Positions 9,213-41,542 of a stretch of 64,000 nucleotides of DNA are shown piece by piece; position 1 is the stretch's first letter, and each line of letters begins with the position of its first letter. The stretch is from a virus (taxonomy: Duplodnaviria; Heunggongvirae; Uroviricota; Caudoviricetes). The DNA is taken from the IMG/VR virus record IMGVR_UViG_3300035492_000070; one strand, given 5' to 3'. The translations under genes and the position numbers were made by a program. The notes beneath the pieces were generated by a model, which made no database searches, was not told the origin of the DNA, and was given only the letters and a program-made list of their open reading frames with translations.

Positions 9213-9943
9213 GGTTAGATGTTCATTCCGATATGCACTTAGAGCTTCAGGATTTCCCTGCATATTTCCTTTTTAATCAAGACTTTGATGTTTTGATTCT
9301 AGCAGGTGACATTGCAGATTATGAGAATTTACCTTGGGCACTAGAGCGTATGCGGGATTTCTGTCCTAACAAGCCAATTCTTTATGTACCTGGTAACCAT
9401 GACTATTATGGTAATGACATTGGTAATATTCAGTTCTATGAGCGAGTGTGTTCCGAATTTGATATTTTCTTAATGGAAAAGAATGAAACAACCATTAATG
9501 GTCAACATTTTGTTGGTTGTACATTATGGTCTAACCTAAGCTCTGTGAATGGGTTTTACGATCAATACGTAGGAAATCAAGTCAAGTCCCGCATTGCCGA
9601 TTTCTACCATATTAAGAACTTTACACTAGATTCAATTTTAGCAAAAGCTCGTGACCATTACCTGTTTTTACAAGAAAAGATTACACCCGAATCTGTCGTT
9701 ATTACACACTTCAGCCCTTTACTGTGTCTTGACAATGAAAGGTTTCCTACAAACGATCTTACGAATTATTTCTGTAACAACTACATGAATCTTTTTGATC
9801 TTAACCCTAAGGCATGGATCTACGGACATACGCACGGTAATAGAAAAGGTAAGTTTGGTAACACAGAAGTAATCACCAATCAACGTGGTTATTTTCGAGA
9901 GTGTGCTGGTGTGTATGACCCTAACTTCATTATAGAGATTTAA
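9209..9943 (+). CDS. metallophosphoesterase
   Basis: DMHLE, AGDIADYEN, GNHDYYG, GHTHG motifs. Confidence 0.6.
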   Translation: MRLDVHSDMHLELQDFPAYFLFNQDFDVLILAGDIADYENLPWALERMRDFCPNKPILYVPGNHDYYGNDIGNIQFYERVCSEFDIFLMEKNETTINGQHFVGCTLWSNLSSVNGFYDQYVGNQVKSRIADFYHIKNFTLDSILAKARDHYLFLQEKITPESVVITHFSPLLCLDNERFPTNDLTNYFCNNYMNLFDLNPKAWIYGHTHGNRKGKFGNTEVITNQRGYFRECAGVYDPNFIIEI

Positions 9944-9944
9944 C

Positions 9945-10586
9945 ATGGCAATTCTTTTTGACTTTGAAACATTGGATAACAAACCAACCGCAATCGTTCT
10001 AGATTTAGCGGTTGTTCATTTCGATGAAAACAAAATTGACAATTTCCAACAACTCGTAAACGACTCTAACAGAATTTTTTATCGTAAATTTGACACCGAT
10101 CAAAAAGGTAGAACCGCAGGTCATTCAACACTTGATTGGTGGAAACAACAAGAAGCAGAAGTAAGAAAAATTCTTAAACCTACACCTAATGATGTCTCAT
10201 TAGAACAGGGTATGCTTGAATTTAAAAGTTGGCTTGAAATGAAACGGCATTCGTTAAAGTGGGATAATGCTTACGTACGAGGACAATCTTTTGACTTTCC
10301 TTTAATGGCTGATATTACAGATAGACTTTTTGATACCTGGGGTTTAGGTTATTCCCTGTTTCCCTGTTCTTTTTGGAATCAGTTTGATGTTAGAACTGCA
10401 TTAAAGTTTGCTTTACATGATATTAAGTTGAAAAAAGTACCAGTAGCCAAAGGAACATTCAACGGGTTCATAAAACACAACGCAATTCATGACTGTGCTA
10501 AGGATGCAATCCTAATACAAACGGTTTTAGGTTATGCTAAAGGCACTGTACCTATTCCTGATTTAAATGATTGTGACTGGATTTAA
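9945..10586 (+). CDS. dexA: exonuclease A (DexA, DEDD 3'-5' exonuclease)
   Basis: FDFETLDNKPTAIVLDLAVVHFD, RGQSFDFPLMADI, HNAIHDCAKDAIL align with T4 DexA. Confidence 0.75.
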   Translation: MAILFDFETLDNKPTAIVLDLAVVHFDENKIDNFQQLVNDSNRIFYRKFDTDQKGRTAGHSTLDWWKQQEAEVRKILKPTPNDVSLEQGMLEFKSWLEMKRHSLKWDNAYVRGQSFDFPLMADITDRLFDTWGLGYSLFPCSFWNQFDVRTALKFALHDIKLKKVPVAKGTFNGFIKHNAIHDCAKDAILIQTVLGYAKGTVPIPDLNDCDWI

Positions 10587-21528: not shown

Positions 21529-23066
21529 ATAATGGAAGAATATATTGTCAAAGGCCTTGAAAGCATTTCGTGTAATAATTTTCTACTTGAAAGATACATG
21601 AAATTTATACGTTATCGTATCAGTAACCCTTTGACATCGGGTATATACGAAAAACATCACATATTACCAAAATGCATCTTTCCAGAATATGCTAAAGTTA
21701 AGTCGAATATAGTCAAATTAAAACTTCGGGAGCATTATTTAATTCACTGGATATTATTAAAAATGACATACAAACCATCTTTATGTTTTGCATTTAATGT
21801 AATGAAAAGGACAATACCAGGAGAAACTAAAAATTCAGCTCTATACGAGATGTCAAGAAAATACATTAGTAAAGCGGTATCTGAATCGAATAATGGTAGG
21901 CCTATGTCATATGAAAATAAAATAAAGGTATCAAAAAGAACCAAAGATACAGTGATAGTCAAAGATAAAGATGGAAACACTTTTAGAGTGAGTGTATTCG
22001 ATGAAAGATATAAATCTGGTGAATTAGTGTTCTATAGAAAAGGGCTTAAACATAAGAAAACTACTATAGAAAAAATGCTGAAAAATTCGTCTAAAGGTAA
22101 AGTTGCACATTACAACATACACACAAACGAGATTCGATATTTTACAATCGACGATAATGTAGATGATTGTTGGGTTAAAGGTGTTTCACAATACAATTTA
22201 GAACAGTATAAGTTATTAGCTGTACCTAAATTGAAAAATAAAATATGGTACTACAATAATAAAACAGGAAAACATAAAAGGTTTGATGTAAATGATCGTC
22301 CATCGAGTGACTGGGTGAAAGGAAGAAAATCTGGGTATAACCAAGGGATGAATGTAATGAATTCTAAAATTAAGGTGGTAGACTTGAAATACAGAGCAGT
22401 AAGAAAAGTTTTTCCTCATGAGGTTAGTTGGTTTCACGGCAAAGATAACGGTACATCCACCGATAAAACTGTTATATTTACTTTTAATATGGTTATATTC
22501 GTGGCACGATCTAGCCTAGATGAATATATGAAATCTCATAAACTTTACCCTACTATCACAACTTCCATAGAATCGAATATGAAGTATAGGGTACCTTCAC
22601 CTCATCATAACAATAAATTAGAGGTCAAGAACTTTAGGTATACTCATAAAGGAAAAACTCTTGAAGAGTTAGGAGTTAAATGTTACAATTTAACAGATTT
22701 TGAACTGGATAAACACGAGGGATATACTGTATATGGCAACTGATTATTCAAATATGAGTGATAATGAGTTATTATCACTCAAAAATAAATTAGAAAACGA
22801 ACAGTCGTTTTTTAATAATCTTCAAATGGCAATGAAGATCCTTTAATTAAGGAGGCTTCGAGTAGTGATACTCGTCGAAAATCGGGTGAATTGCTGGAAA
22901 CCTAAAGGATAGTAAATTATCCCATGGCAATCAGCAGCCAAGCCTCATGGATGAGGAAGGTTCAGAGACTAGCGGGGCTTGAGAGCTTAATAACCGCATT
23001 AGCGCCCGACATCTACATATGATAGATGATGATATAGTCCAATCCTTAGAGAAATCTAAGCCCCAG
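21526..23066 (+). mobile_element. group I intron (IA-type core) in the DNA polymerase gene with HNH ORF; splice sites approximate
   Basis: core elements P aattgctggaaa (22889-22900), Q aatcagcagcc (22929-39), R gttcagagactag (22960-72), S atgatatagtcc (23029-40); motif B resumes in frame at about 23050-23068. Confidence 0.7.
21532..22743 (+). CDS. intron-encoded HNH homing endonuclease with C-terminal RYKSGELV-type repeats
   Basis: EKHHILPK...N...EHYLIHW HNH motif; lies wholly inside the intron upstream of the catalytic core. Confidence 0.7.
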   Translation: MEEYIVKGLESISCNNFLLERYMKFIRYRISNPLTSGIYEKHHILPKCIFPEYAKVKSNIVKLKLREHYLIHWILLKMTYKPSLCFAFNVMKRTIPGETKNSALYEMSRKYISKAVSESNNGRPMSYENKIKVSKRTKDTVIVKDKDGNTFRVSVFDERYKSGELVFYRKGLKHKKTTIEKMLKNSSKGKVAHYNIHTNEIRYFTIDDNVDDCWVKGVSQYNLEQYKLLAVPKLKNKIWYYNNKTGKHKRFDVNDRPSSDWVKGRKSGYNQGMNVMNSKIKVVDLKYRAVRKVFPHEVSWFHGKDNGTSTDKTVIFTFNMVIFVARSSLDEYMKSHKLYPTITTSIESNMKYRVPSPHHNNKLEVKNFRYTHKGKTLEELGVKCYNLTDFELDKHEGYTVYGN

Positions 23067-24060
23067 ATTGCTAAATGGGGGCTACGGGGCACTCGCCAAC
23101 GAGCATTTCCTATACTTTATGATTGAAAACGCAGAGGCAATTACTCTTACAGGACAAATGGTTAACCGATATACGTCCACACGAGTAGATTCGTTCATCA
23201 TGAAAACGTTAGGGTTAGAAGATACTGTATGGATATACAGTGATACGGATTCAGGAATTTTTTCATTAAAAGCGTTTCATGATAATGTTCTATCAAATGT
23301 AAATGATGTACAGAAAAAGGTTGATGTGATTGACAAGTTTATTAAGACAACTATTGACCCCTATGTTAACTCTGTTACCGAGGATATCAAGAGTTACCTA
23401 AACTCAGTAGAAAATAAAATGGTTTGGGAAAGAGAGGTTATCGCGGAATCTGCAGTGTTCGTAGCCAAGAAACGTTATGCTATGGCTGTATGGGATTCTG
23501 AGGGTGTAAGATTTGACCCTGAACCGAAATTCAAAATCATGGGACTTGAATCTGTACGCTCATCGACCCCTGCATGGGCAAGGAAGTTTTTGAAGGAATG
23601 TTACAAAACGGTTTTAATGGGGACAGAGCAACAAATTCAGGATATGGTAGTAGAGTTCAAGAAAAAGTTCTACGAATATACACCTAGTGAAATAGCTACT
23701 CCTCGTGGCGTTAACGGTTTAGAAAAGTTCCACGACAAGACCTCCATTTATATTAAAGGAACACCTAAGCACGTCAAGGCGGCATTGGTTCATAATTGGT
23801 TGGTTGATAAAAAAGGAATGTCAACTGAAAAGATTAAGAGCGGCAATAAAATTAAATATATTGATTTGACCCGACCTAATCCCATTAACAGTGATGTAAT
23901 TGGATTCTCTGTTCATTTGCCTAAAGAGTTTGGTTTGGATTCTTACGTGGATTATAAAAGTATATTTGACACTGCTTTTATGTCACCCTTAAGAATATTC
24001 TTGAATGTGGTAGGGTGGACGGAAGAGCCGATAGTGTCATTAGAAGACTTCTTTTCTTGA
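23050..24060 (+). CDS. 43: family B DNA polymerase gp43, exon 2 (motifs B and C); 5' boundary approximate
   Basis: LLNGGYGALANEHF (Kx3NSxYG-like motif B); IYSDTDS (motif C YGDTDS). Confidence 0.8.
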   Translation, partial: RNLSPRLLNGGYGALANEHFLYFMIENAEAITLTGQMVNRYTSTRVDSFIMKTLGLEDTVWIYSDTDSGIFSLKAFHDNVLSNVNDVQKKVDVIDKFIKTTIDPYVNSVTEDIKSYLNSVENKMVWEREVIAESAVFVAKKRYAMAVWDSEGVRFDPEPKFKIMGLESVRSSTPAWARKFLKECYKTVLMGTEQQIQDMVVEFKKKFYEYTPSEIATPRGVNGLEKFHDKTSIYIKGTPKHVKAALVHNWLVDKKGMSTEKIKSGNKIKYIDLTRPNPINSDVIGFSVHLPKEFGLDSYVDYKSIFDTAFMSPLRIFLNVVGWTEEPIVSLEDFFS

Positions 24061-31624: not shown

Positions 31625-32437
31625 GTGCCACCTGCTCACGTGGCTAAAATTATGACCAAAGACGGTTATCAAGAAGGTGTTATTGGTACATCTAAATTCC
31701 GGTTAGCACCTTGCTGGGCCTACTGCGATAAGTTAGTGGTGTTGGATGTGTCCGATAAGGCTCGTATTGAACCTTTAAAGATTTTCATCCCGACTGATAA
31801 GTTAGAACTTGAAGTTGATGTACAAACCACACTGAGCTTGAATGAGCGTAAAATTGAACCATTATTCGGTACTATTGCACCTCAAGAGAGTAAAGACCAC
31901 GACTATTCATTTATTGGATGGGATAGTATCTATCGCACTTATGCTCAACAAATTGTATTAACTACCACTCGTGAATATCTGTCACATTACTCTATTGGTG
32001 AAATTGCTTCTTCAATGGAAAAGGTTAATACAGATTTACGTAATCTTTTAACTGAGGCATTGGCAGCCAAAACACCGTTTGATGTGCGTTATGTTGGTAT
32101 TACTAAAATTCAGTATCCAAAGATTATTACCGAAGCTCAAGAAAATGCAGCACAACGTAGAGAGCAAATTCAACAAGAAGAAGCCCAATTACAGATCAGC
32201 AAAGTACGATTAGAGCGCGAATTACAAGAAGCTCGGTTACAGCGACAGATCGACTTTGAAAAGGCTGAAGGTGAAGCTGCTGCTCAAGTGGTACAACGTC
32301 AAGCAGTAGATGAGCGAGTATTACAGTTACGCAAGTTAGAAAACGAACGTATGTGGATTGAAAAGTGGGATGGAAAACTGCCAGTCACTGCGCTTGGCGA
32401 GTCAGTTCCAATGATCCATATCGGTCAAGGTAAGTGA
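31625..32437 (+). CDS. SPFH/band-7 (prohibitin-like) domain protein
   Basis: QQIVLTTTREYLSHYSIGEIAS...coiled coil EAQLQISKVRLERELQEARLQRQIDFEKAEGEAAAQ; GTG start per ORF track. Confidence 0.55.
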   Translation: MPPAHVAKIMTKDGYQEGVIGTSKFRLAPCWAYCDKLVVLDVSDKARIEPLKIFIPTDKLELEVDVQTTLSLNERKIEPLFGTIAPQESKDHDYSFIGWDSIYRTYAQQIVLTTTREYLSHYSIGEIASSMEKVNTDLRNLLTEALAAKTPFDVRYVGITKIQYPKIITEAQENAAQRREQIQQEEAQLQISKVRLERELQEARLQRQIDFEKAEGEAAAQVVQRQAVDERVLQLRKLENERMWIEKWDGKLPVTALGESVPMIHIGQGK

Positions 32438-32886: not shown

Positions 32887-34104
32887 TTGAAAATGTCTAA
32901 GAAAACAATTCAGCAGTTCGCACACTTTGATAATAATATCTTCCCTTTCGTAGTTCAGGAAGGTACAATCATCACAAAGGTTCCACCTGCCTATTACCAT
33001 GTAACCGCTACTCCTACGGGGCAGATTTTCTTAACCAAGAAATCGGACAAGCTAAACCTACCAGAAAAGATTTACGGTTCAACAAATGAACGAGCTGCTC
33101 GTATGTGGCGTTCTTATGATAATGTAAGTGGTCCTTTAGCGGCAGGTCTGTTTGGTAGTAAAGGTGCAGGTAAAACATTATTGTCTAACGTAGTAGCGAA
33201 CCAGGCTATTGAACGTGGTATTCCAGTTATTGATGTTAGTTCATCATTCAGTACAGATAAGGACTACTTGGACTTCCTGAATTCTATTGGTGAGTGTGTA
33301 ATCATTTTCGACGAGTTCTTGAAACACCTTAGCAAGTTAGGTGATTCCACAGAGCACGACAAGCGTGAGATTGCTTCTGACCGCCAAGATGAAATGTTAA
33401 CCTTTTTCAGCGGTTCAAACAACAACAAGCGCATGGTTCTGTTAATTGACAATGAGTCAGGCCTACTGTCAAATTTCTTCAGAGACCGTCCAGGTCGTAT
33501 GCGTTACCTATACCAATACAAAGGTATTGAGTCTGATGTTGTACAGAATGTAGCAACCGACGCAGGTCTAAGTGTTGATAAAGTTGACTCATTAGTAACT
33601 TATGCAAAACGGTTCCAATGCACGTTTGACACGATTAACGAAATTGTAAAAGAATGGGTATTGTTTCCAAATGATACTATCGAATCAATCACCTCTATTA
33701 TGAACGTACCGTCAATGACACCTGACACGAAGTTAAAAGCAAAAATTGTTAGCTTTAAACATACAGATGGTGACTATATCATTGAAAATGAGTTGGCGAC
33801 TGTTAGTTCAAGAGGCACTGTATCTTTCACTGCCACTTATCCTAACCCATTCTACGGTAAAATTTACAGTAACGCTGAAGAGTTTGATACTGATAGTAAA
33901 ATGGATGCCTATAGTTACGAATATTATCTCGGCAACAAAGATAAACCAAGATTACATGATGAGTTTACCGTTCATGACTACCAGTTAGTTGCAGTTAAAG
34001 GTAACCGTCAAGCGTATATTGCACAAGGAGGAGACTTAGAATTGACTATCGAATTATTGGAGCAAGAAGAAGTCGCTCCAATGTTCAACTTCAATTTCCT
34101 ATAA
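32887..34104 (+). CDS. P-loop NTPase
   Basis: Walker A GLFGSKGAGKTLL; Walker B-like VIIFDEF. Confidence 0.45.
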   Translation: MKMSKKTIQQFAHFDNNIFPFVVQEGTIITKVPPAYYHVTATPTGQIFLTKKSDKLNLPEKIYGSTNERAARMWRSYDNVSGPLAAGLFGSKGAGKTLLSNVVANQAIERGIPVIDVSSSFSTDKDYLDFLNSIGECVIIFDEFLKHLSKLGDSTEHDKREIASDRQDEMLTFFSGSNNNKRMVLLIDNESGLLSNFFRDRPGRMRYLYQYKGIESDVVQNVATDAGLSVDKVDSLVTYAKRFQCTFDTINEIVKEWVLFPNDTIESITSIMNVPSMTPDTKLKAKIVSFKHTDGDYIIENELATVSSRGTVSFTATYPNPFYGKIYSNAEEFDTDSKMDAYSYEYYLGNKDKPRLHDEFTVHDYQLVAVKGNRQAYIAQGGDLELTIELLEQEEVAPMFNFNFL

Positions 34105-34735: not shown

Positions 34736-34956
34736 TGGGTGCGCCTACCATATCAGTAAATCAACAAGACATTGACCGTGCTATGGTAGGCACTCTTATT
34801 CAGGCAGAATTCTTCTTTGGTAAAAAGGAATTTAATAAAGAAGAATTAGGCTTTATAAATCATATGGCGACTTTGTTAGCGCATGAAAGAAAATGGAATG
34901 AATTTTATTCAAATCTTTTGCATTTTAGTGTTGACAATGACAAAACAAGTGTATAG
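34735..34956 (+). CDS. hypothetical protein
   Basis: ORF only. Confidence 0.3.
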   Translation: MGAPTISVNQQDIDRAMVGTLIQAEFFFGKKEFNKEELGFINHMATLLAHERKWNEFYSNLLHFSVDNDKTSV

Positions 34957-35011
34957 AATACACTAAATAAAGTTTTATTACTCTTTAACAAATTGGACAA
35001 GTCTTACTTGA

Positions 35012-35083
35012 TGCGGGTGGGAGGTAAGGTATCTCGCTGGTCTCATAAGCCAGAAGAACGTGATTCGATTTCACGACCCGCAT
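35012..35083 (+). tRNA. tRNA-Met/Ile2 (CAU), acceptor helix extended by 9 further base pairs in the precursor
   Basis: acceptor tgcgggt/acccgca; D gagg-taaggta-tctc; anticodon arm ctggt CTCATAA gccag; T arm cgtga TTCGATT tcacg; no encoded CCA. Confidence 0.6.
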
Positions 35084-35103
35084 CAAGTAGGACTTTAGAA
35101 TTA

Positions 35104-35161
35104 AAAGAACCGATACAGCAACAAAAAATCTTAAGAGTAGCGCGAATTGCGCACCGTAAAA
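35104..35161 (+). ncRNA. ACAGCAA-leader element D carrying only a tRNA 5'-half-like module (acceptor+D arm, ends CG-TAAAA); no 3' closure found
   Basis: aaa gaaccgat acagcaacaaaaaatc ttaagag ta gcgc gaatt gcgc a cg taaaa. Confidence 0.35.
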
Positions 35162-35248
35162 CCAATGTCGAGGAGTTGGCAAAGTTAGGTTTTCTCATGC
35201 TTCGGCTGCCGAGAAAACTGATCTGAGAAGGCGCGGTTCTGTAATATA

Positions 35249-35323
35249 GCCTTGTAAGCGTTGGTGATTGCGTACTTGCCTTCCAAGCAAGTGGATTGGG
35301 TTTGACTCCCAAACAAGGCTCCA
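35249..35323 (+). tRNA. tRNA-Gly (UCC)
   Basis: acceptor gccttgt/acaaggc; anticodon arm cttgc CTTCCAA gcaag; T arm ttggg TTTGACT cccaa (unusual T at 56); CCA encoded. Confidence 0.55.
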
Positions 35324-35481
35324 TATTTCTAATGATTTATTTGTTTTGGTGTTTGCGAAAAACTGGTGATCCTGAAAGTCTAGGCCAAGATTGTGTAAGG
35401 AAAGAAACTGCACTCCGTTTAGATAATCTGGCCAGATGTCAAAAACGGGTAGTAGAGACACCAAAATAAATAAATTATATT

Positions 35482-36508: not shown

Positions 36509-36590
36509 GCGCCGGTATCTCAACGGTCTTCTAAACCGTCGTTAATCGAGTAATTGGAGTATGGGGGTTCGAGTCCCTCCCGGTGCGCCA
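36509..36590 (+). ncRNA. tRNA-like element: good acceptor (gcgccgg/ccggtgc), T arm and CCA, one hairpin with loop CTTCTAA (UCU, Arg-like), no recognisable D arm
   Basis: acggt CTTCTAA accgt hairpin starts 5 nt after position 9; 23 nt of unassigned sequence before T arm ggggg TTCGAGT ccctc. Confidence 0.3.
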
Positions 36591-36595
36591 TATTT

Positions 36596-36672
36596 GCCCC
36601 GATAGTTTAATTGGCGAAAACAACGAACTCATAATTCGTCAGATGCAGGTTCGAGTCCTGCTTGGGGCACCA
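36596..36672 (+). tRNA. tRNA-Met/Ile2 (CAU)
   Basis: gccccga ta gttt aattggcga aaac a acgaa CTCATAA ttcgt cagat gcagg TTCGAGT cctgc ttggggc a cca. Confidence 0.65.
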
Positions 36673-36707: not shown

Positions 36708-36983
36708 ATGGATTCAATTAAATACTTTTTAGATTGGCTGATACCTAGGTTTGTTACAGATCATGTCGCTCTAGAATACGATAAAGAGAATGATCGATTT
36801 GTAATGTTTTGTCATGTCGACGAGTTAGAAAAATTAGAAGATTGTGATGCGTTTGCTATTGTGAAAGGTTTTAACTTCTTTGGTTACTCACTTTTCTCTA
36901 ATATTCGTGCCATACAGGTAGTGAATAAAAATTTAGTAGAAATGTTTAAAGAAGGTGTTGACATTGAAATAGAACTAATGTAG
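36708..36983 (+). CDS. hypothetical protein
   Basis: SD aaggatattgac + ATG. Confidence 0.35.
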   Translation: MDSIKYFLDWLIPRFVTDHVALEYDKENDRFVMFCHVDELEKLEDCDAFAIVKGFNFFGYSLFSNIRAIQVVNKNLVEMFKEGVDIEIELM

Positions 36984-37008
36984 AATGTCTTTTGTGAGTT
37001 AGGTAAAA

Positions 37009-37101
37009 CTAGATCTTATTAGTAAGGGCCTTTACCGCAAACCTAAAACAATTTTGACTTTTAATCAAAAAACGTTACGGGTCCTGTCTAATAAGATCTA
37101 G
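37009..37101 (+). repeat. perfect 14-bp inverted repeat (ctagatcttattag/ctaataagatctag) enclosing a 65-nt loop
   Basis: seen directly; immediately upstream of RNA element 0. Confidence 0.5.
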
Positions 37102-37106
37102 AGTAA

Positions 37107-37187
37107 CATTTAGAAAGAACAGTTACAGCAAACAAAAATATTGCAAACAATGGTAGCTTTGCGCTCAAAAACTGTTCTGTCTAAATG
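37107..37187 (+). ncRNA. stem-enclosed RNA element 0 (S1 catttag-AAA-S2 gaacagtt-ACAGCAAACAAAAA-cargo-AAAA-S2'-TGT-S1'), cargo not tRNA-like
   Basis: S1/S1' and S2/S2' are exact reverse complements. Confidence 0.5.
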
Positions 37188-37199
37188 TTATTTGAAGTG

Positions 37200-37331
37200 T
37201 GTATCGGAAAGGATAGTTACAGCAACAAAAACTTGCCTGTTAAGCACGGGGTCGTAGGTTCGAATCCTACTATAGGTGAAAGCCTGTATAGCTCAGCTGG
37301 TTAGAGCACGTAAAAACTATCCTGTCCGATA
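37200..37331 (+). ncRNA. stem-enclosed RNA element A carrying a circularly permuted tRNA-Asn (GUU): leader ACAGCAACAAAAACT, positions 29-73, AAA, positions 1-28, TAAAA
   Basis: S1 tatcgg/ccgata, S2 ggatagtt/aactatcc; 3' part tgc CTGTTAA gca cg gggtc gtagg TTCGAAT cctac tataggt g; 5' part gcctgta ta gctc agctggtta gagc a cg; joined at 28|29 gives a fully canonical 73-nt tRNA. Confidence 0.6.
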
Positions 37332-37363
37332 TGTACTTAAATTATGAAACCAGGAGAAATACC

Positions 37364-37687
37364 ATGTTAAAAGAAAAAGTGTTGAACTCAATTGATCCAT
37401 TCGTAGCAAAGCGTCTTGCTAATGCAGGCGAAGCAGCAGAACAAACCTTTGAACGTCGTTTCTTAGAGCGCAAGAAGTCTACCTTAGTAGCATTTCTTCT
37501 TAGCTTGTTTTCATTACACCGTTTCTATTACGGTCAAGTTGGATTAGGCATTCTGTTTATCATTTCCATGTTACTGGTTGTTGGTTGGGTATGGTTGATT
37601 TATGATTGGTGTACAATGAGTAAGCGGGTACGTCAAATGAATGATGACCTGGCTATGGACTTGTTACGACAAGTAGCACCGCAATAA
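37364..37687 (+). CDS. small membrane protein
   Basis: SD accaggagaaatacc + ATG; two hydrophobic helices; the ORF-track start lies inside RNA element A. Confidence 0.4.
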   Translation: MLKEKVLNSIDPFVAKRLANAGEAAEQTFERRFLERKKSTLVAFLLSLFSLHRFYYGQVGLGILFIISMLLVVGWVWLIYDWCTMSKRVRQMNDDLAMDLLRQVAPQ

Positions 37688-37740
37688 TTATTAGGACTCT
37701 AGAAATAGAGTCCTTTCAAGAAGTGATTGTTTAGTTATTT

Positions 37741-37868
37741 CTTGAAAGGGCTTCTACAGCAATTTAAACATCCAAGTGGTTCCGGGTTCGAGTCCCGGGA
37801 TTCATGAAAATGAATCTAGCTCAACTGGGAGAGCACATGGCCTTAATGTAAGTCCTGTTTCAATTTAG
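37741..37868 (+). ncRNA. RNA element B: ACAGCAA leader + T arm/acceptor 3' strand + AAA + acceptor 5' strand/D arm; anticodon part and 3' closure degenerate
   Basis: ccggg TTCGAGT cccgg gattcat g aaa atgaatc ta gctc aactggga gagc a; acceptor halves are perfect complements. Confidence 0.4.
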
Positions 37869-38010
37869 ATAGAGTTTTGGAAAGGTTTCATACAGCAACT
37901 AAAATATTCCATGCCAAGGACGAGACCCCTGTTCGAATCAGGGACTCCATCAAGATGGAGTTGGTGTAGTGGTTAGCACGCGTAAAAATGAAACCTGTCC
38001 AAAACTCTAT
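37869..38010 (+). ncRNA. stem-enclosed RNA element C carrying a circularly permuted tRNA-Gly (GCC): leader ACAGCAACTAAAATAT, positions 29-72, AAG, positions 1-28, TAAAA
   Basis: S1 atagagttttgg/ccaaaactctat, S2 ggtttcat/atgaaacc; 3' part tcc ATGCCAA gga cg agac ccctg TTCGAAT caggg actccat c; 5' part atggagt tg gtgt agtggtta gcac g cg. Confidence 0.6.
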
Positions 38011-38025
38011 TCCTTTCTTATTTTT

Positions 38026-38033
38026 TATAAATA
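38026..38033 (+). promoter_or_regulatory. T4-type late promoter box TATAAATA
   Basis: ttttttataaataaaag about 35 nt upstream of the ORF at 38069. Confidence 0.45.
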
Positions 38034-38068
38034 AAAGTTTGAAACTTTATTAACTAAGGTAACCAATC

Positions 38069-38239
38069 ATGAAACAGTTCAAAGAATTTATCAACGAAAC
38101 TCATTTGTCAGATGCTCGCGTCAAAGAGATTAAAGCATCAGACGACGAAAAGTTAAAGGCTAAGTACAAAGAGTATACCGACGCCGAAAAGGCAGGTGAC
38201 AAAGAAAAGGCTGATAAGTTGGCTAAACAGCTAAAATAA
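38069..38239 (+). CDS. small Lys/Glu-rich protein (56 aa) behind late promoter
   Basis: ATG with SD taaggt; not in ORF track (<60 aa); terminator follows. Confidence 0.35.
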   Translation: MKQFKEFINETHLSDARVKEIKASDDEKLKAKYKEYTDAEKAGDKEKADKLAKQLK

Positions 38240-38254
38240 TTATTGATTTTAATT

Positions 38255-38287
38255 GAAGCCTAGTTTAAACTAGGCTTCGTTGTTTTT
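38255..38287 (+). terminator. rho-independent terminator
   Basis: gaagcctag tttaaa ctaggcttc + gttgttttt. Confidence 0.6.
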
Positions 38288-38327: not shown

Positions 38328-39734
38328 ATGAGCAATTTATTTAACGCAGTGAACACTGGAATGTCATTAACTGATAACGGCTGTGTTACTAACACATCTA
38401 CTTTAGATTACTGTCTAGACCTATTCTTTACCATCGGTGCATCTCGTGGTAAAGATATCAGTTATCAGTTTGCTAAGGCATTTGCACAAGACAAACGTCT
38501 AGCAACCCAAATCCTTTTCCATGCTCGTGACATCCGTGGTGGTATGGGCGAACGTAAACTGTTCCGCGATAATCTATTATCAATCACTACCAAGAAAAAT
38601 GCCATCGAAGTAATGTTGAAAACAATTGAAGTTGGTCGGTTCGATGATCTTCATGTTTTCTTAGGCTCTAAGTTTGAAGATTTAGCAGTTTCCATTATCG
38701 CAGATGCGTTAGTGCAAGGTTCATCTTTAGCGGCTAAGTGGACGCCTCGCTCGGGTCCTATGTTCAACCTACTGCGTAAGAAGATGTCACTGGATCCTAA
38801 ATCACTTCGTAAGATGTTGGTTCAACTGTCTAATACAGTTGAGCAAAAAATGTCGGCTAAGCATTGGTCAGAGATTGACTATTCTAAATTACCTAGCTTG
38901 GCATCGGCTCGTTATATGACTGCATTTCACCGTAATGACCCTGCTCGTTACCAGGCTTACAAAGATGCTTTAACTAAAGGTGAAGTTAAGATTAATGCTG
39001 CGGCTGTTTACCCTTATGATGTGATTAAGGCTGCTCGTTATTCATCCGAGAACGTTGATGTCAGTGAAGCCCAATGGAAAGCACTACCTGACTATATCGG
39101 TAATAATGATGCTAATATTTTACCGGTAATTGACGTTTCTGGTTCTATGGATTGCCCTGCAGGTGGTAGTAAAAATTTAACTTGTATGGATGTTGCTGTG
39201 TCTTTAGGTATGTATGTAGCAGAGCGCAGTAAAGGTATTTTCAAAGATCAGTTCATTACATTCCACGAAAAACCACAAATGGTTAAAATGAATGGGTCAT
39301 TTACCCAACGCCTTAACCAGGTATATCGTGCTCCTTGGGGCGGTTCTACTAACCTAGAAGCAACCTTTCGACTGATTGCTGATGCAGCGGTTAAACACGG
39401 ACTGAAACAAGAAGATTTACCAACTCAGTTGTTAATCTTCTCAGATATGCAGTTTAACCGGATTGGCGGGTATAGAGGAAATAACCAAACTGCATTCCAG
39501 TTCGCGGAAAAGTATTTTAACGAGCGTGGTTATAAACTGCCTCAGGTTGTGTTCTGGAACCTGAATGCTGGTAATGATAACTTTCCTGTACAGAAAGACC
39601 AGACTGGTGCTTTGCTTGTTAGTGGATTTAGCCCATCTCTGATGAAGTCAGTCTTACGTGGTACAGAATACAACCCACGCCAATTAATGTTAGAATCAGT
39701 TGATAAAGAGCGTTACACTATCAACAAGTTCTAA
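38328..39734 (+). CDS. vWA-domain protein (helical N-terminal region + C-terminal von Willebrand A domain)
   Basis: MIDAS motif ILPVIDVSGSMD; ATG with SD gaaggagaaacatt chosen over track TTG at 38280, which overlaps the terminator. Confidence 0.5.
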   Translation: MSNLFNAVNTGMSLTDNGCVTNTSTLDYCLDLFFTIGASRGKDISYQFAKAFAQDKRLATQILFHARDIRGGMGERKLFRDNLLSITTKKNAIEVMLKTIEVGRFDDLHVFLGSKFEDLAVSIIADALVQGSSLAAKWTPRSGPMFNLLRKKMSLDPKSLRKMLVQLSNTVEQKMSAKHWSEIDYSKLPSLASARYMTAFHRNDPARYQAYKDALTKGEVKINAAAVYPYDVIKAARYSSENVDVSEAQWKALPDYIGNNDANILPVIDVSGSMDCPAGGSKNLTCMDVAVSLGMYVAERSKGIFKDQFITFHEKPQMVKMNGSFTQRLNQVYRAPWGGSTNLEATFRLIADAAVKHGLKQEDLPTQLLIFSDMQFNRIGGYRGNNQTAFQFAEKYFNERGYKLPQVVFWNLNAGNDNFPVQKDQTGALLVSGFSPSLMKSVLRGTEYNPRQLMLESVDKERYTINKF

Positions 39735-40440: not shown

Positions 40441-40588
40441 AGGAATGACCGATGCTCTACGTGAAAGTTAAAATTTACAAAACAGGTGAAGTGGTAGATG
40501 CTCGGTCATATGGCTACGGTTGGGTGACTTGCGATGGCAGATTCATCCACCGAAGTCATGGAAAAGTGATCCTACAAGGAGCTTAGAT

Positions 40589-41542
40589 ATGAAAGGTTGT
40601 ACTAATATCGTAACCGTATTACATGGTAGTCATTTGTACGGTTTAAACACTGAAAACTCTGATAAAGATTTTAAATCTGTTTTCTTTAAACCTTTTCGTG
40701 ATGTGGTGTTAGGTAAAGGACCAGAGAACTTTTCTACTGGTACTGGATCAGTTCATGAAAAGAACACTAAAGACGATACTGACCATATGCACTTTAGCTT
40801 AAAGTCATTCTTCCAAATGCTTAGCAAAGGTGAAATGGTGGCAATGGATTTAATTCATTCTCCTAATACACATTGGGTAGGAGACACTCATCATGTATGG
40901 TCAATTATCCAACGAAATCGAGATTTGTTTTACTGTCGTGATATGCGTGCCTATTTAGGTTATTGTCGTAAACAGTCCGCCAAGTATGGTATCAAAGGTT
41001 CAAGAGTTGCCGCTCTAAGAGAAGCACTTGATGCAATGTCTTTGGTAAATGAGAATTGTAAATTCAAACTCATTGAAATTCGAAATGATTTGCCCGAAGG
41101 CGAATTCTTAATCAAACGAGAAACTGGTTATGAAATCTTAGGTAAGTTACATCAATGGACTGTAAATGCTTTTGAAGTGAAAGAACGGGCACAGAAAGCA
41201 TTTGATGAATATGGTCACCGTGCTTTACTGGCCGAACAGAATGAAGGTGTAGATTTTAAAGCTGTTAGTCATGCTTTCAGGGCCGGTTACCAACTGTTAG
41301 ATCTATTCCAGAAAGGTACAATGATTCTACCACTTTCCAAGGAAGTGCGAAATATTATTCTACCTATTAAACTAGGACAGTTAGACTTCAAGACTCAAAT
41401 ACAACCTGATCTAGAGCGTCTTATGGATAAGGTAGAAGCAGAGTCTAAAAAGGCTAACTTACCAGAATTTGTAGATCAAGATAAAGTCGATGAATTATTG
41501 ATCTGTGTTTATGAACATCTTTATGGAGTGAAATTCAAATGA
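40589..41542 (+). CDS. nucleotidyltransferase-fold protein (minimal Pol-beta-like NTase)
   Basis: VLHGSHLYGLNTENSDKDF fits the [GS]-x9-13-D-x-[DE] NTase signature; SD caaggagc; internal ATG chosen. Confidence 0.45.
   Translation: MKGCTNIVTVLHGSHLYGLNTENSDKDFKSVFFKPFRDVVLGKGPENFSTGTGSVHEKNTKDDTDHMHFSLKSFFQMLSKGEMVAMDLIHSPNTHWVGDTHHVWSIIQRNRDLFYCRDMRAYLGYCRKQSAKYGIKGSRVAALREALDAMSLVNENCKFKLIEIRNDLPEGEFLIKRETGYEILGKLHQWTVNAFEVKERAQKAFDEYGHRALLAEQNEGVDFKAVSHAFRAGYQLLDLFQKGTMILPLSKEVRNIILPIKLGQLDFKTQIQPDLERLMDKVEAESKKANLPEFVDQDKVDELLICVYEHLYGVKFK

What the first reader, a model, noticed from the sequence alone, without database searches (positions are those of the whole stretch)
37107..38010. Family of stem-enclosed structured RNAs; two carry complete tRNAs (Asn-GUU, Gly-GCC) in circularly permuted order
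Five loci share the architecture S1 - AAA - S2 - ACAGCAA(C)AAAAA - cargo - CG-UAAAA - S2' - UGU - S1'. They are at about 35104, 37107, 37200, 37741 and 37869. The helices S1/S1' and S2/S2' differ in sequence at every copy but remain exact reverse complements. Examples are catttag/gaacagtt, tatcgg/ggatagtt and atagagttttgg/ggtttcat. This compensatory variation points to selection on RNA structure and argues against DNA repeats. In elements A and C the cargo is tRNA positions 29-73, then a 3-nt linker (AAA or AAG), then positions 1-28. The linker closes the acceptor stem into a hairpin. The two pieces are mutually complementary: both have matching acceptor and anticodon stems, including the 27-28 CG pair. 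Joined at 28|29 they give textbook cloverleafs with canonical anticodon loops (CU-GUU-AA and AU-GCC-AA). Identical breakpoints in two different tRNAs rule out random truncation. Two readings fit. One is circularly permuted tRNA genes whose nick in the anticodon stem is sealed by an RNA ligase. The other is Y-RNA/YrlA-like tRNA mimics, in which a protein-binding stem replaces the anticodon-stem closure. I do not know of either in a T4-like phage.
Basis: seen in the sequence. Interest (0 to 1): 0.92.

Follow-up and report, generated by a model that had tools for sequence, protein, structure and literature searches.

The report
Phage Y-RNA-like tRNA mimics beside Ro60-like gene
A T4-like phage packs at least six small structured RNAs, sharing one conserved "handle", next to a gene for a Ro60-like ring protein; two of them are complete tRNA look-alikes written in circularly permuted order, and they belong to a large family in phage tRNA clusters that I could not find in Rfam 15 or in the papers I searched.

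Summary
Five stem-enclosed elements sit at the stated places, and a sixth at 37009-37101 was missed. Rejoining the halves of two of them gives clean tRNA-Asn(GUU) and tRNA-Gly(GCC) cloverleaves. The universal part is a 6-8 bp helix, then NN-ACAGCAA, then cargo, then the complementary strand followed by UG.

In 93 related loci this motif occurs 116 times on the gene strand and 0 times on the other strand. It clusters around a DUF2828 gene (window 38328-39734). The predicted fold of that protein matches Ro60/TROVE proteins over its full length.

A scan using RNA features alone found about 100 further tRNA-like members in viral contigs. At least 31 of 105 carry the same "nicked" anticodon arm, broken at 28|29, with U33, A37 and A38 conserved. 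Their anticodons differ between orthologues, sit on bodies of the wrong class, and usually duplicate a canonical tRNA in the same cluster. The same handle also encloses non-tRNA cargo. In some phages it sits as a closed hairpin inside normal-order tRNAs.

Best reading: Y-RNA/YrlA-like tRNA mimics that form RNPs with a Ro60-like protein, not decoding tRNAs. No element reaches Rfam's YrlA threshold. This is a new variant of a known kind. The permuted-tRNA-gene reading is unlikely but not excluded.

The parts
35100..35245 (+). E1: family member with 112-nt non-tRNA cargo. It lies between tRNA-Met (35012-35084) and tRNA-Gly (35249-35323). S1 ATTA/TAAT, S2 35107-35112 GAACCG, core ACAGCAA 35115-35121, S2' 35234-35239 CGGTTC, then UG.
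   Evidence: Cargo-level relatives with the same or a similar S2 occur in L092, L090 and L089.
37009..37101 (+). Short cargo. S1 is 14 bp (37009-37022 with 37088-37101), then UAA, S2 GGGCCU 37026-37031, UU, variant core ACCGCAA 37034-37040, S2' GGGUCC 37079-37084, UGU.
   Evidence: z = -5.96; R1 12.3 bits, E = 0.53, which is weak on its own.
37101..37193 (+). E2: short-cargo member. S2 GAACAG(UU) 37117-37124, core 37125-37131, S2' 37170-37177, UGU 37178-37180, long S1.
   Evidence: z = -5.47; R1 28.3 bits, E = 1e-5; handle only.
37195..37338 (+). E3: complete permuted tRNA mimic. S2 37211-37218, core 37219-37225, tRNA positions 29-73 at 37234-37278 (anticodon loop CUGUUAA), linker AAA 37279-37281, positions 1-28 at 37282-37310, UAAAA, S2' 37315-37322, UGU 37323-37325, and a 14-bp S1.
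   Evidence: ARAGORN tRNA-Asn gtt; z = -4.70; YrlA 36.6 bits against a gathering score of 69.
37742..37863 (+). E4: YrlA-like tRNA mimic without an anticodon loop. It has a T arm, a 7-bp acceptor hairpin closed by GAAA, and a D arm. A CCAaGUG/CACaUGG stem leads to the handle. S2 GGGCUU 37748-37753, core 37756-37762, S2' AAGUCC 37850-37855, UGU.
   Evidence: YrlA 33.9 bits over the full model; R1 54.5 bits, E = 3e-13; E4 was not in the training set.
37868..38011 (+). E5: complete permuted tRNA mimic. S2 37884-37891, core 37892-37898, positions 29-73 at 37908-37951 (anticodon loop AUGCCAA), linker AAG 37952-37954, positions 1-28 at 37955-37982, UAAAA, S2' 37988-37995, UGU 37996-37998, and a 13-14 bp S1.
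   Evidence: ARAGORN tRNA-Gly gcc; z = -6.28.
38328..39734 (+). Gene for a 468-aa DUF2828 + DUF7788 (vWA) protein with a Ro60/TROVE fold. It is the inferred protein partner of the RNAs.
   Evidence: Pfam. (AF2 pLDDT 87.8, pTM 0.87); the top 12 Foldseek PDB hits are all Ro60/TROVE proteins aligned over full length, E from 2e-9 to 1e-6, with TMq 0.39-0.63 (eight of the twelve at 0.5 or above); 711 phage records, some annotated 'Ro-like RNA binding protein'.
36958..36986 (+). Near-consensus sigma-70-type promoter (TTGACA-17-TAGAAT) just upstream of E0-E5. A twin at 34931-34959 precedes the tRNA/E1 cluster.
   Evidence: 11 of 12 matches each. This is a consensus match only.
40520..41542 (+). Context: an RlaP-family RNA-repair nucleotidyltransferase gene. 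Band_7 (31625-32437) and an AAA ATPase (32887-34104) lie upstream.
   Evidence: RlaP function is taken from PMC12776372.

Best explanation
These are phage-encoded Y-RNA-like non-coding RNAs, the counterpart of bacterial YrlA/YrlB.

Proposed steps:
1. They are transcribed from early-type promoters as part of the phage tRNA-cluster transcripts and cut out by the tRNA-processing nucleases. This step is inferred.
2. The conserved handle is a basal helix (S1, internal loop, S2), a single-stranded NN-ACAGCAA (minimal core ..GCAA) on the 5' strand, an A-rich 3' linker, and UG after S2'. It is the docking site for the ring-shaped Ro60-like DUF2828-vWA protein encoded next door. This is inferred from co-location, co-orientation and analogy with Ro60-Y RNA.
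3. The variable module sits on top of the handle. In E4 it is a YrlA-type tRNA body whose anticodon stem runs into the handle.
4. In E3 and E5 the handle leaves from the side of the anticodon stem, between positions 28 and 29. A 3-bp hairpin with a 7-nt loop stacks on two trans pairs (27-28 with 42-43) and rebuilds a whole anticodon arm. The RNP therefore displays a full tRNA look-alike without being a contiguous tRNA. The structure is shown by covariation.
5. The likely job is to engage or divert tRNA-binding factors during infection, such as host anticodon nucleases or other defence and RNA-turnover enzymes like PNPase. This is speculative. It fits the report that the Ro60-like gp130 of phage Bas63 counters the Ppl defence system. 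That gp130 is a DUF2828 orthologue is itself an inference.
For: Protein partner:
- The adjacent protein has a Ro60 fold and carries DUF2828/DUF7788 domains.
- YrlA is the only Rfam family besides tRNA with E below 0.01 on the elements. It aligns in the order T arm, acceptor hairpin, D arm.

Association, protein to RNA:
- The strict handle motif occurs 116 times on the gene strand and 0 times on the other strand in 93 DUF2828 loci.
- 68 of 111 lie within 500 nt of the gene.
- 43 of 44 covariance-model hits are on the gene strand.

Association, RNA to protein:
- Of 87 IMG/VR loci found from RNA features alone, 35 hold a DUF2828 homologue in the short stretch fetched. All 35 are co-oriented, and 20 lie within 1.4 kb.

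The handle is independent of the cargo:
- It encloses short, 112-nt and 212-238-nt non-tRNA cargos, anticodon-less tRNA bodies and complete ones.
- It also occurs as a closed hairpin inserted in normal-order tRNAs in Ci1 and PX29.

Structure:
- 99.4% of cells are paired, against 63.7% after shuffling.
- The covariation score is 0.92, against 0.20 after shuffling and at most 0.14 when the partners are slid.
- The acceptor helix, which was not used for selection, is 97.5% paired, and all 7 of its pairs change on both sides.

Nicked anticodon arm:
- It is present in 31 of 105 elements, against 1.4 expected.
- U33, A37 and A38 are each present in 30 of 31.

Against a decoding role:
- Anticodons differ among orthologues: GUU/GUU/GCU/GAU and GCC/ACC/CUG/UUC.
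- GCU and UAA anticodons sit on short-variable-arm bodies.
- The anticodon duplicates a canonical tRNA in all 7 loci that hold 18 or more tRNAs.

Literature: YrlA next to Ro60, including in phages (PMC4201824). Phage phiLo Ro60 with Yrl1/2 and PNPase (PMC12135203). Bas63 gp130 is Ro60-like, lies upstream of tRNAs and counters Ppl (10.1101/2024.10.10.617714).
Against: - No binding data exist. The protein-RNA link is by neighbourhood only.
- A strong terminator-like hairpin (38254-38279) separates the RNA cluster from the protein gene.
- The handle lacks the GNCGAA(N)G motif of YrlA, and no element reaches Rfam's gathering score.
- 52 of 87 RNA-anchored loci show no DUF2828 gene in the stretch held. 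Most of those stretches are short or consist of tRNA clusters.
- The very strong conservation of U33, A37, A38 and a 7-nt loop is what one expects of a real anticodon arm. It has no precedent in described Y RNAs.
- The shared use of one handle by 'intron-like' and permuted forms mirrors the BHB logic of archaeal and algal tRNA splicing.
Confidence: 0.68

Rival explanations
1. These are true circularly permuted (and, in other phages, intron-like) tRNA genes. In this reading the handle is a processing signal. An endonuclease would cut at both linkers and an RNA ligase would join 28 to 29. For permuted forms this goes through a circle that RNase P and 3' trimming plus CCA addition then open. The products would be functional tRNAs.
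For: - The rejoined cloverleaves are perfect.
- The breakpoint is identical in at least 29 divergent elements, with covarying 27-28/42-43 pairs.
- U33, A37 and A38 are conserved.
- E3 carries G73 and GUU, which I recall as the E. coli Asn identity set (from memory, not tested here).
- The same handle is used by normal-order 'intron' forms and permuted forms, as BHB is in Cyanidioschyzon and archaea.
- RNA-repair genes such as RlaP lie nearby.
Against: - The handle also encloses non-tRNA cargo and tRNA bodies with no anticodon loop (E0, E1, E2, E4).
- Linker lengths vary: 8-17 nt on the 5' side and 6-18 nt on the 3' side. There is no BHB-like geometry.
- Anticodons are not conserved between orthologues.
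- Ser(GCU) and Leu(UAA) anticodons sit on class-I bodies.
- By my recollection of the E. coli identity rules (not tested here), E5 lacks Gly identity elements: it has A1-U72 and C73.
- The elements are redundant with canonical tRNAs in the same cluster.
- CCA is encoded in 1 of 29, and many acceptor loops are only 3-4 nt.
- No RNA ligase was found among the 20 window ORFs scanned. This check was incomplete.
Confidence: 0.1
2. They act as two-piece (split) tRNA-like molecules. In this reading RNase P opens the acceptor hairpin and CCA is added, as shown for M. smegmatis YrlA. The two strands stay held together by the handle and the tRNA helices, and they are aminoacylated or used by a tRNA-dependent enzyme without any ligation.
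For: - 7-bp acceptor stems are present in 24 of the 31 parsed elements, i.e. of the 29 that parsed correctly. Chen et al. describe this as the RNase P determinant (PMC4201824).
- Mordin's element encodes G-CCA in the acceptor loop.
- A CCA-adding enzyme gene lies in the Ci1 locus.
Against: - CCA is encoded in only 1 of 29.
- Acceptor loops are often only 3-4 nt.
- The bodies do not match the identity sets of their anticodons.
- There is no direct evidence.
Confidence: 0.1
3. They have no function of their own. In this reading they are decaying tRNA gene fragments from tandem-duplication or recombination events, flanked by RNase III-type processing hairpins or terminators of the tRNA operon.
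For: - They sit inside tRNA clusters.
- Tandem arrays exist in which S2' of one unit can pair with S2 of the next (L173). This shows how permutation could arise by duplication.
- The S1+S2 stems of about 22 bp resemble RNase III sites (from memory).
Against: - Every helix shows pervasive compensatory change.
- The single-stranded core and the loop positions U33, A37 and A38 are conserved.
- The family spans Straboviridae and Ounavirinae.
- The elements show strict strand and neighbourhood association with one protein family.
Confidence: 0.04

Closest known systems
YrlA / bacterial and phage Y RNA-like RNAs (Rfam RF02553; Chen et al. 2014, PMC4201824)
   Same: - Encoded close to a Ro60-fold protein gene and on the same strand.
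- The 5' and 3' ends form a basal stem, with a conserved purine-rich single-stranded motif on the 5' strand.
- The tRNA-like module runs in the order T arm, closed acceptor stem, D arm.
- Shorter siblings without a tRNA module occur, like YrlB.
   Different: - The handle sequence is NN-ACAGCAA ... UG instead of GNCGAAN0-1G.
- The best Rfam scores are 36.6 and 33.9 bits against a gathering score of 69. None of 15 related loci passes it.
- The partner protein is DUF2828/DUF7788, not a Pfam-TROVE protein.
- There are up to six or more copies per genome, embedded in tRNA clusters.
- A subclass keeps a complete anticodon arm through a 28|29 break.
- Both circular permutations exist.
Circularly permuted tRNA genes of Cyanidioschyzon merolae, some green algae and Thermofilum pendens (from memory; Soma 2014 review, cited in PMC10085705)
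   Same: - The 3' half lies upstream of the 5' half, joined by a short linker at the acceptor ends.
- Leader and trailer pair with each other.
- The same flanking motif is also used by intron-containing, normal-order genes.
   Different: - There is no bulge-helix-bulge motif.
- I do not recall position 28|29 among the junction sites reported for these genes (from memory, not checked).
- The setting is bacterial and phage, without a known splicing endonuclease.
- The handle also carries non-tRNA cargo.
- Anticodon and body are mismatched, and the elements are redundant with canonical tRNAs.
Thermus phage phiLo Ro60 with Yrl1/Yrl2 (PMC12135203)
   Same: A phage-encoded Ro60-fold ring protein (the best Foldseek hit of the window protein, 9kop/9l5y) with Y-like RNAs encoded just upstream.
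   Different: - The phiLo RNAs carry the CGAA motif, and the paper does not describe them as tRNA-like (the term does not occur in its text).
- The protein is annotated as TROVE.
- Sequence identity to the window protein is only about 16-17%.
Bas63 gp130 (PhageMaP preprint, 10.1101/2024.10.10.617714)
   Same: A Ro60-like protein gene lying directly upstream of the tRNA cluster of a FelixO1-like phage. This is the same arrangement as the DUF2828 gene of phage Mordin, where four handle RNAs lie between the tRNAs.
   Different: - The authors only speculated that some annotated tRNAs might be Y RNAs. No RNA was identified.
- That gp130 is a DUF2828 orthologue is my inference and was not tested.

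Membership tests
YrlA (Rfam RF02553) | Score at or above the family's gathering threshold (69 bits). | tested here: not met
   E3 scores 36.6 bits and E4 33.9 bits. E5 has no hit at E up to 10. There is no YrlA hit at the gathering score in 15 related loci.
YrlA (Rfam RF02553) | tRNA-like domain in the order T arm, closed acceptor stem, D arm, enclosed by a stem formed by the RNA ends. | tested here: met
   cmscan alignments, ARAGORN on rejoined halves, and covariation in all helices.
YrlA (Rfam RF02553) | Encoded within about 4 kb of a Ro60 orthologue and on the same strand. | tested here: met
   E5 ends 317 nt upstream of a gene whose model matches Ro60 structures over its full length. Caveat: the protein is DUF2828, not Pfam TROVE.
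YrlA (Rfam RF02553) | Conserved GNCGAAN0-1G motif in the presumed Ro60-binding region. | tested here: not met
   The conserved motif is ACAGCAA, with variants ACCGCAA, GCAGCAA and UCAGCAU. A CGAA-containing relative may exist at 35332-35475.
YrlA (Rfam RF02553) | Physical association with the Ro60 orthologue; tRNA-type modifications; RNase P and CCA processing. | not testable with these tools
   This needs co-immunoprecipitation or EMSA, and RNA end and modification mapping.
Circularly permuted tRNA genes | The 3' half precedes the 5' half, the two are joined at the acceptor ends, and rejoining gives a canonical cloverleaf. | tested here: met
   for E3 and E5. for 29 elements.
Circularly permuted tRNA genes | A bulge-helix-bulge motif is formed by leader and trailer at the junction. 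| tested here: not met
   The junction is flanked by single-stranded linkers of 8-17 nt and 6-18 nt, then a 6-8 bp helix. There is no arrangement of a 3-nt bulge, 4 bp and a 3-nt bulge.
Circularly permuted tRNA genes | The product is a functional tRNA: the anticodon matches the identity of the body, is conserved in orthologues, and fills a decoding need. | tested here: not met
   Anticodons vary among orthologues. GCU and UAA sit on class-I bodies. The anticodon is duplicated by a canonical tRNA in 7 of 7 large clusters.
Circularly permuted tRNA genes | The mature RNA carries a 28-29 phosphodiester, and a circular intermediate exists. | not testable with these tools
   This needs RNA sequencing of infected cells.
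Ro60/TROVE proteins (the partner protein) | A ring of HEAT-like alpha-helical repeats followed by a vWA domain. | tested here: met
   AF2 model with pLDDT 87.8. The top 12 PDB matches are all Ro60/TROVE proteins, with alignments of 464-567 columns and TMq 0.39-0.63; four of the twelve fall below 0.5.
Ro60/TROVE proteins (the partner protein) | Sequence-level match to Pfam TROVE, or significant sequence similarity to solved Ro60 proteins. | tested here: not met
   Pfam gives DUF2828 and DUF7788, with only a weak vWA_Ro60 hit (18 bits against a cutoff of 27.7). A profile search against PDB sequences gives E = 0.05-0.7, in the vWA region only.

The most novel reading that the evidence does not exclude
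The handle could be a phage-borne RNA splicing and permutation signal. One machinery, perhaps the Ro60-like ring acting with a nuclease and an RNA ligase, would excise the handle both from 'intron-type' tRNA precursors (Ci1, PX29) and from permuted precursors (this window). This would be a bacterial-virus analogue of BHB-dependent tRNA splicing. It would yield contiguous tRNAs or circular RNAs whose anticodons evolve fast under pressure from host anticodon nucleases.
Probability: 0.1. Interest if true: 0.95.

Novelty: new variant of a known kind. Interest (0 to 1): 0.72.

Why it matters
- It gives RNA partners to a very common phage protein family of unknown function. DUF2828 is found in 711 GenBank phage records, from T4-like and FelixO1-like phages to Listeria, Staphylococcus, Campylobacter and mycobacteriophages.
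- If Bas63 gp130 is a member of that family, as inferred here, one member has been reported to counter a bacterial defence system.
- It explains 'pseudo-tRNA' and 'intron-containing tRNA' annotations in phage genomes.
- It extends the Ro60-Y RNA paradigm to a new handle motif.
- It shows a natural circular permutation within one RNA family.
- It reveals tRNA mimics that keep a full, fast-evolving anticodon arm. This is a concrete, testable lead on how phages interfere with tRNA-directed immunity or RNA surveillance.
- Culturable phages that carry the system (Mordin, Ci1, PX29) make it directly testable. FelixO1 and Bas63 were not examined here.

Tried and rejected
- blastn of 37000-38100 against GenBank phages found no match.
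- Rfam at the gathering score finds only tRNAs and a group I intron in the window. At E up to 10, no ribozyme or other family besides YrlA and tRNA is credible on the elements.
- A sequence search of the protein against PDB found nothing. A profile search gave only weak hits in the vWA region. The fold search was needed.
- The MAFFT alignment of short elements (A3) misaligned the 3' halves. I did not use it. I used fixed-register, normalised sequences instead (A4).
- S1 as a universal feature is rejected. It is only clade-specific.
- Pairing of ACAG with CUGU, as the YrlA alignment suggested, is rejected on topology by inference. The order of the strands is wrong for a helix or for a feasible pseudoknot.
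- T4 rnaC and rnaD, the old 'species 1/2' RNAs of the T4 tRNA cluster, carry no handle.
- Large ORFs in RNA-anchored loci without a DUF2828 hit were inspected by eye only and not scanned. They did not look Ro-like: one resembled a terminase, one DnaK and one a radical-SAM enzyme.
- Literature searches for permuted tRNA in phages, DUF2828, and phage tRNA-like decoys found no description of this family.
- No RNA ligase was found among the 20 window ORFs scanned. Most ORFs remain unscanned.
Full report
**1. What is in the window**

The + strand between 34.9 and 38.0 kb is a tRNA cluster. ARAGORN finds 7 tRNAs and Rfam finds one more. It lies downstream of two near-consensus promoters, TTGACA-17-TAGAAT, at 34931 and 36958.

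Stem-enclosed elements are packed between and after the tRNAs. A sixth, E0 at 37009-37101, has the variant core ACCGCAA and was missed.

Each element reads S1 - (A)AA - S2 - NN - ACAGCAA - cargo - S2' - UG(U) - S1'. S1 and S2 differ in every copy but stay complementary. E0, E2 and E3 abut one another directly.

Folding z-scores are -6.0 (E0), -5.5 (E2), -4.7 (E3), -2.6 (E4), -6.3 (E5) and -0.5 (E1).

**2. The permuted tRNAs**

Joining 37282-37310 to 37234-37278 gives ARAGORN tRNA-Asn(gtt). Joining 37955-37982 to 37908-37951 gives tRNA-Gly(gcc).

In genomic order, the 5' linker ends with a U. Then comes a 3-bp hairpin with a 7-nt loop (positions 29-41), then C42-G43, the variable loop, the T arm, a 7-bp acceptor stem closed by N73 plus AAA or AAG, then U8-A9, the D arm, N26 and C27-G28, and finally UAAAA. 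The two CG dinucleotides pair in trans, so the anticodon stem is complete but nicked at 28|29.

E4 has T, acceptor and D arms but no anticodon loop. Its anticodon-stem equivalent (CCAaGUG/CACaUGG) runs straight into the handle.

**3. The neighbour**

A 468-aa ORF (38328-39734) starts 317 nt after E5. It carries Pfam DUF2828 + DUF7788, with a weak vWA_Ro60 hit. An AlphaFold2 model built on 41 homologues has pLDDT 87.8 and pTM 0.87.

Foldseek against the PDB returns, as its top 12 hits, only Ro60/TROVE proteins aligned over their full length. These include the Ro60 of Thermus phage phiLo (9kop/9l5y, E = 2e-9), Xenopus Ro60 (1yvr, TM 0.63), Deinococcus Rsr and human Ro60. Query-normalised TM-scores across the twelve run from 0.39 to 0.63, and four fall below 0.5. 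Everything below those twelve is vWA domain only.

Sequence methods barely see this relationship.

The surroundings hold an RlaP RNA-repair nucleotidyltransferase, a Band_7 protein and an AAA ATPase. UvsX, gp5-like and gp47-like genes confirm a T4-like phage.

**4. Rfam**

Apart from tRNA, the only family with a credible E-value on the elements is YrlA, the bacterial Y-RNA-like tRNA mimic. It scores 36.6 bits on E3 and 33.9 bits on E4 over the whole model. Both are below the gathering score of 69.

YrlA has exactly this topology: T arm, closed acceptor stem, D arm, enclosed by a stem made from the RNA ends. It is encoded next to Ro60 orthologues in bacteria and some phages (PMC4201824).

**5. 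The family is large and tied to DUF2828**

tblastn finds the protein in 711 GenBank phage records. They span Straboviridae, FelixO1-like Ounavirinae, and Campylobacter, Listeria, Staphylococcus, Bacillus, Enterococcus and mycobacteriophages, where it is annotated 'Ro-like RNA binding protein'. In each of the six related loci I scanned or saw annotated, the gene lay in or beside a tRNA cluster.

I fetched 92 loci anchored on the protein. A strict, fixed-register motif was then scanned. It requires a 6-nt S2 starting with G, 2 nt, ACAGCAA, a complementary S2' ending in C within 320 nt, and then [ACU]G.
- It occurs 116 times on the gene strand and never on the other strand.
- 68 of 111 occurrences lie within 500 nt of the gene.
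- 111 of 137 eligible cores are closed, against 5.0 expected after shuffling the downstream sequence.
- 46 different S2 hexamers are used.

In Citrobacter phage Mordin, four copies lie between the tRNAs right after the gene. They read S1 - AGAA - S2 - NN - ACAGCAA ... S2' - UG - S1', and both helices show compensatory changes. None of the four is annotated.

The long S1 is clade-specific: 16 of 98 elements have 7 bp or more.

**6. The reverse test**

I scanned IMG/VR with RNA features only: ACAGCAA N20-45 GTTCGA N18-45 TAGCTCA. Of 124 matches, 98 have an S2 closure at 105-146 nt.

Of the 87 loci, 35 contain a DUF2828 homologue in the short stretch held. All 35 are on the RNA's strand, and 20 lie within 1.4 kb. 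The other stretches are mostly short, or are tRNA-cluster DNA without large ORFs. The 40% figure is therefore a lower bound.

**7. The nicked anticodon arm is a conserved subclass**

The elements were parsed by T arm and D arm. At least 31 of 105 unique tRNA-like elements have a 3-bp hairpin with a 7-nt loop, followed by two nucleotides that pair with positions 27-28. Shuffling the 5' region predicts 1.4 +/- 1.3.

Features that were not used for selection are nevertheless conserved. U33, A37 and A38 are each present in 30 of 31, and position 32 is mostly C.

The trans pairs covary: CU/AG in 15, CG/CG in 11, GG/CC in 2. Sixteen different hairpin stems occur.

On a fixed-register alignment of 29 elements (A4):
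- 99.4% of cells pair, against 63.7% after shuffling.
- The covariation score is 0.92, against 0.20 after shuffling and at most 0.14 with slid partners.
- The acceptor helix, which played no part in selection, is 97.5% paired, and all seven of its pairs change on both sides.

A covariance model built from this alignment (R1) scores E4 at 54.5 bits and E2 at 28.3 bits (handle only). E4 was not in the training set. In the protein-anchored loci it finds 44 hits, 43 of them on the gene strand, including variant-core members.

**8. Why they are probably not decoding tRNAs**

- Orthologous trios upstream of the protein gene in close relatives (L007 at 70% amino-acid identity, L087 at 58%, L089 at 60%) keep the architecture but not the anticodon. 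The E3 group has GUU, GUU, GCU and GAU. The E5 group has GCC, ACC, CUG and UUC.
- Anticodons of class-II tRNAs (Ser GCU four times, Leu UAA once) sit on bodies with 4-5-nt variable loops.
- In all seven loci that hold 18 or more canonical tRNAs, the element's anticodon is already present on a canonical tRNA. In 5 of 11 pairs the 7-nt loop is identical while the stems differ.
- The linkers between handle and tRNA body vary, at 8-17 nt and 6-18 nt. No bulge-helix-bulge can be drawn. CCA is encoded once in 29, and acceptor loops are often only 3-4 nt.
- The same handle encloses short cargos (E0, E2, and many others of 23-47 nt), a conserved 112-136-nt non-tRNA module (E1, with relatives in L089, L090 and L092), and 212-238-nt cargos in a large clade.

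**9. A twist that keeps the other reading alive**

In the GenBank T4-like phages Ci1 and PX29 the handle appears as a closed hairpin, S2' - UG - AUAA/AGAA - S2 - NN - (A/U)CAGCA(A/U). It is inserted into normal-order tRNA-like genes at 28|29 or 31|32. Annotators called these 'tRNA-Pseudo' and 'tRNA-Leu' with an intron. About twenty more such forms occur in the IMG/VR loci.

The family therefore contains both circular permutations of the same three-dimensional object. For a protein-binding handle this is natural, because it does not matter where the chain ends lie. It is also the logic by which BHB motifs serve both intron-containing and permuted tRNA genes in archaea and algae. I therefore keep that reading at about 10%.

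**10. Comparison with what is known**

Functionally and architecturally these are Y-RNA/YrlA-like RNAs paired with a Ro60-fold protein. They fail two defining tests of the curated YrlA family, the Rfam threshold and the GNCGAA motif. The partner protein is also not a sequence-level TROVE protein.

Phage Ro60-Y RNA pairs are known in mycobacteriophages and others (PMC4201824) and in Thermus phage phiLo (PMC12135203).

For FelixO1-like phages, the PhageMaP preprint noted that Bas63 gp130 is Ro60-like, lies upstream of the tRNA cluster and counters the Ppl defence. It only guessed that some 'tRNAs' might be Y RNAs.

I found no description of the ACAGCAA handle, of the nicked anticodon arm, or of the permutation pair. 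Nothing in Rfam 15 matches.

**Verdict**

This is a new variant of a known kind, and the family is large and well supported by covariation. What is shown is the structure, the conservation and the gene association. What is inferred is binding to the DUF2828 protein and any role as a decoy or in counter-defence.

Noticed in passing
window 37009-37101: A sixth member of the family that is not in the finding. It has a 14-bp S1, S2 GGGCCU/GGGUCC, the variant core ACCGCAA and then UGU. It abuts E2 directly.
   Followed up: yes
window 35332-35475: Another stem-enclosed structured RNA lies between tRNA-Gly and tRNA-Pro. It has a 20-bp closing stem and z = -6.5. The 5' strand of the stem is followed by UUUGCGAAAAAC, which contains the CGAA motif of canonical Y RNAs. 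It may be a seventh, divergent Y-like RNA.
   Followed up: partly
L004 (Citrobacter phage Ci1, OR515478) 7890-8015 and 8012-8125; L005 (Aeromonas phage PX29, NC_023688) 9919-10035: Normal-order tRNA-like genes carry the same handle as a closed hairpin inserted at 28|29 or 31|32. This is the circular permutation of the window's elements. GenBank annotates them as tRNA-Pseudo and as tRNA-Leu with an intron.
   Followed up: partly
L173 1085-1370 (- strand), also L169 and L130: There are tandem arrays of units with near-identical S2 sequences. In them S2' of one unit can pair with S2 of the next, so the permutation state is ambiguous. This is a plausible evolutionary route between the two topologies.
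   Followed up: no
L021, L025, L027, L031, L034, L035, L038, L039, L045, L047, L048, L050, L056, L059, L060, L068 (just after the DUF2828 gene): In a large clade, a short handle element is followed at once by a second one that encloses a 212-238-nt cargo with no T-loop. This cargo is an uncharacterised large structured module.
   Followed up: no
window 35122-35233 (E1 cargo); L092 3934-4090; L090 2639-2786; L089 12550-12696: The E1-type cargo is a conserved non-tRNA module. It includes a covarying hairpin, UAGGUU...AACUGA. It has no Rfam match.
   Followed up: partly
window 37331-37687; L007 6924-7250: A small TM2-domain membrane protein ORF is conserved in synteny in the middle of the RNA cluster, both here and in the closest relative.
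   Followed up: no
window 22834-23061: A group I intron (Rfam, 101.8 bits) lies between ORFs 21532-22743 and 23068-24060. It probably splits one gene.
   Followed up: no
window 36509-36587: A 79-nt tRNA is called by Rfam (34 bits) but not by ARAGORN. It is an unusual tRNA or tRNA-like gene just upstream of tRNA-Met at 36596.
   Followed up: no
L006 (Citrobacter phage Mordin) 8482-8611: The acceptor-closing loop of this tRNA-like element reads G-CCA-AACA, which is a discriminator plus an encoded CCA. This hints that the acceptor hairpin may be opened by RNase P, as in M. smegmatis YrlA.
   Followed up: no
window 38254-38279: A strong intrinsic-terminator-like hairpin (11 bp plus a T run) lies between the RNA cluster with its small ORF and the DUF2828 gene. 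RNA and protein may therefore be separate transcription units.
   Followed up: no
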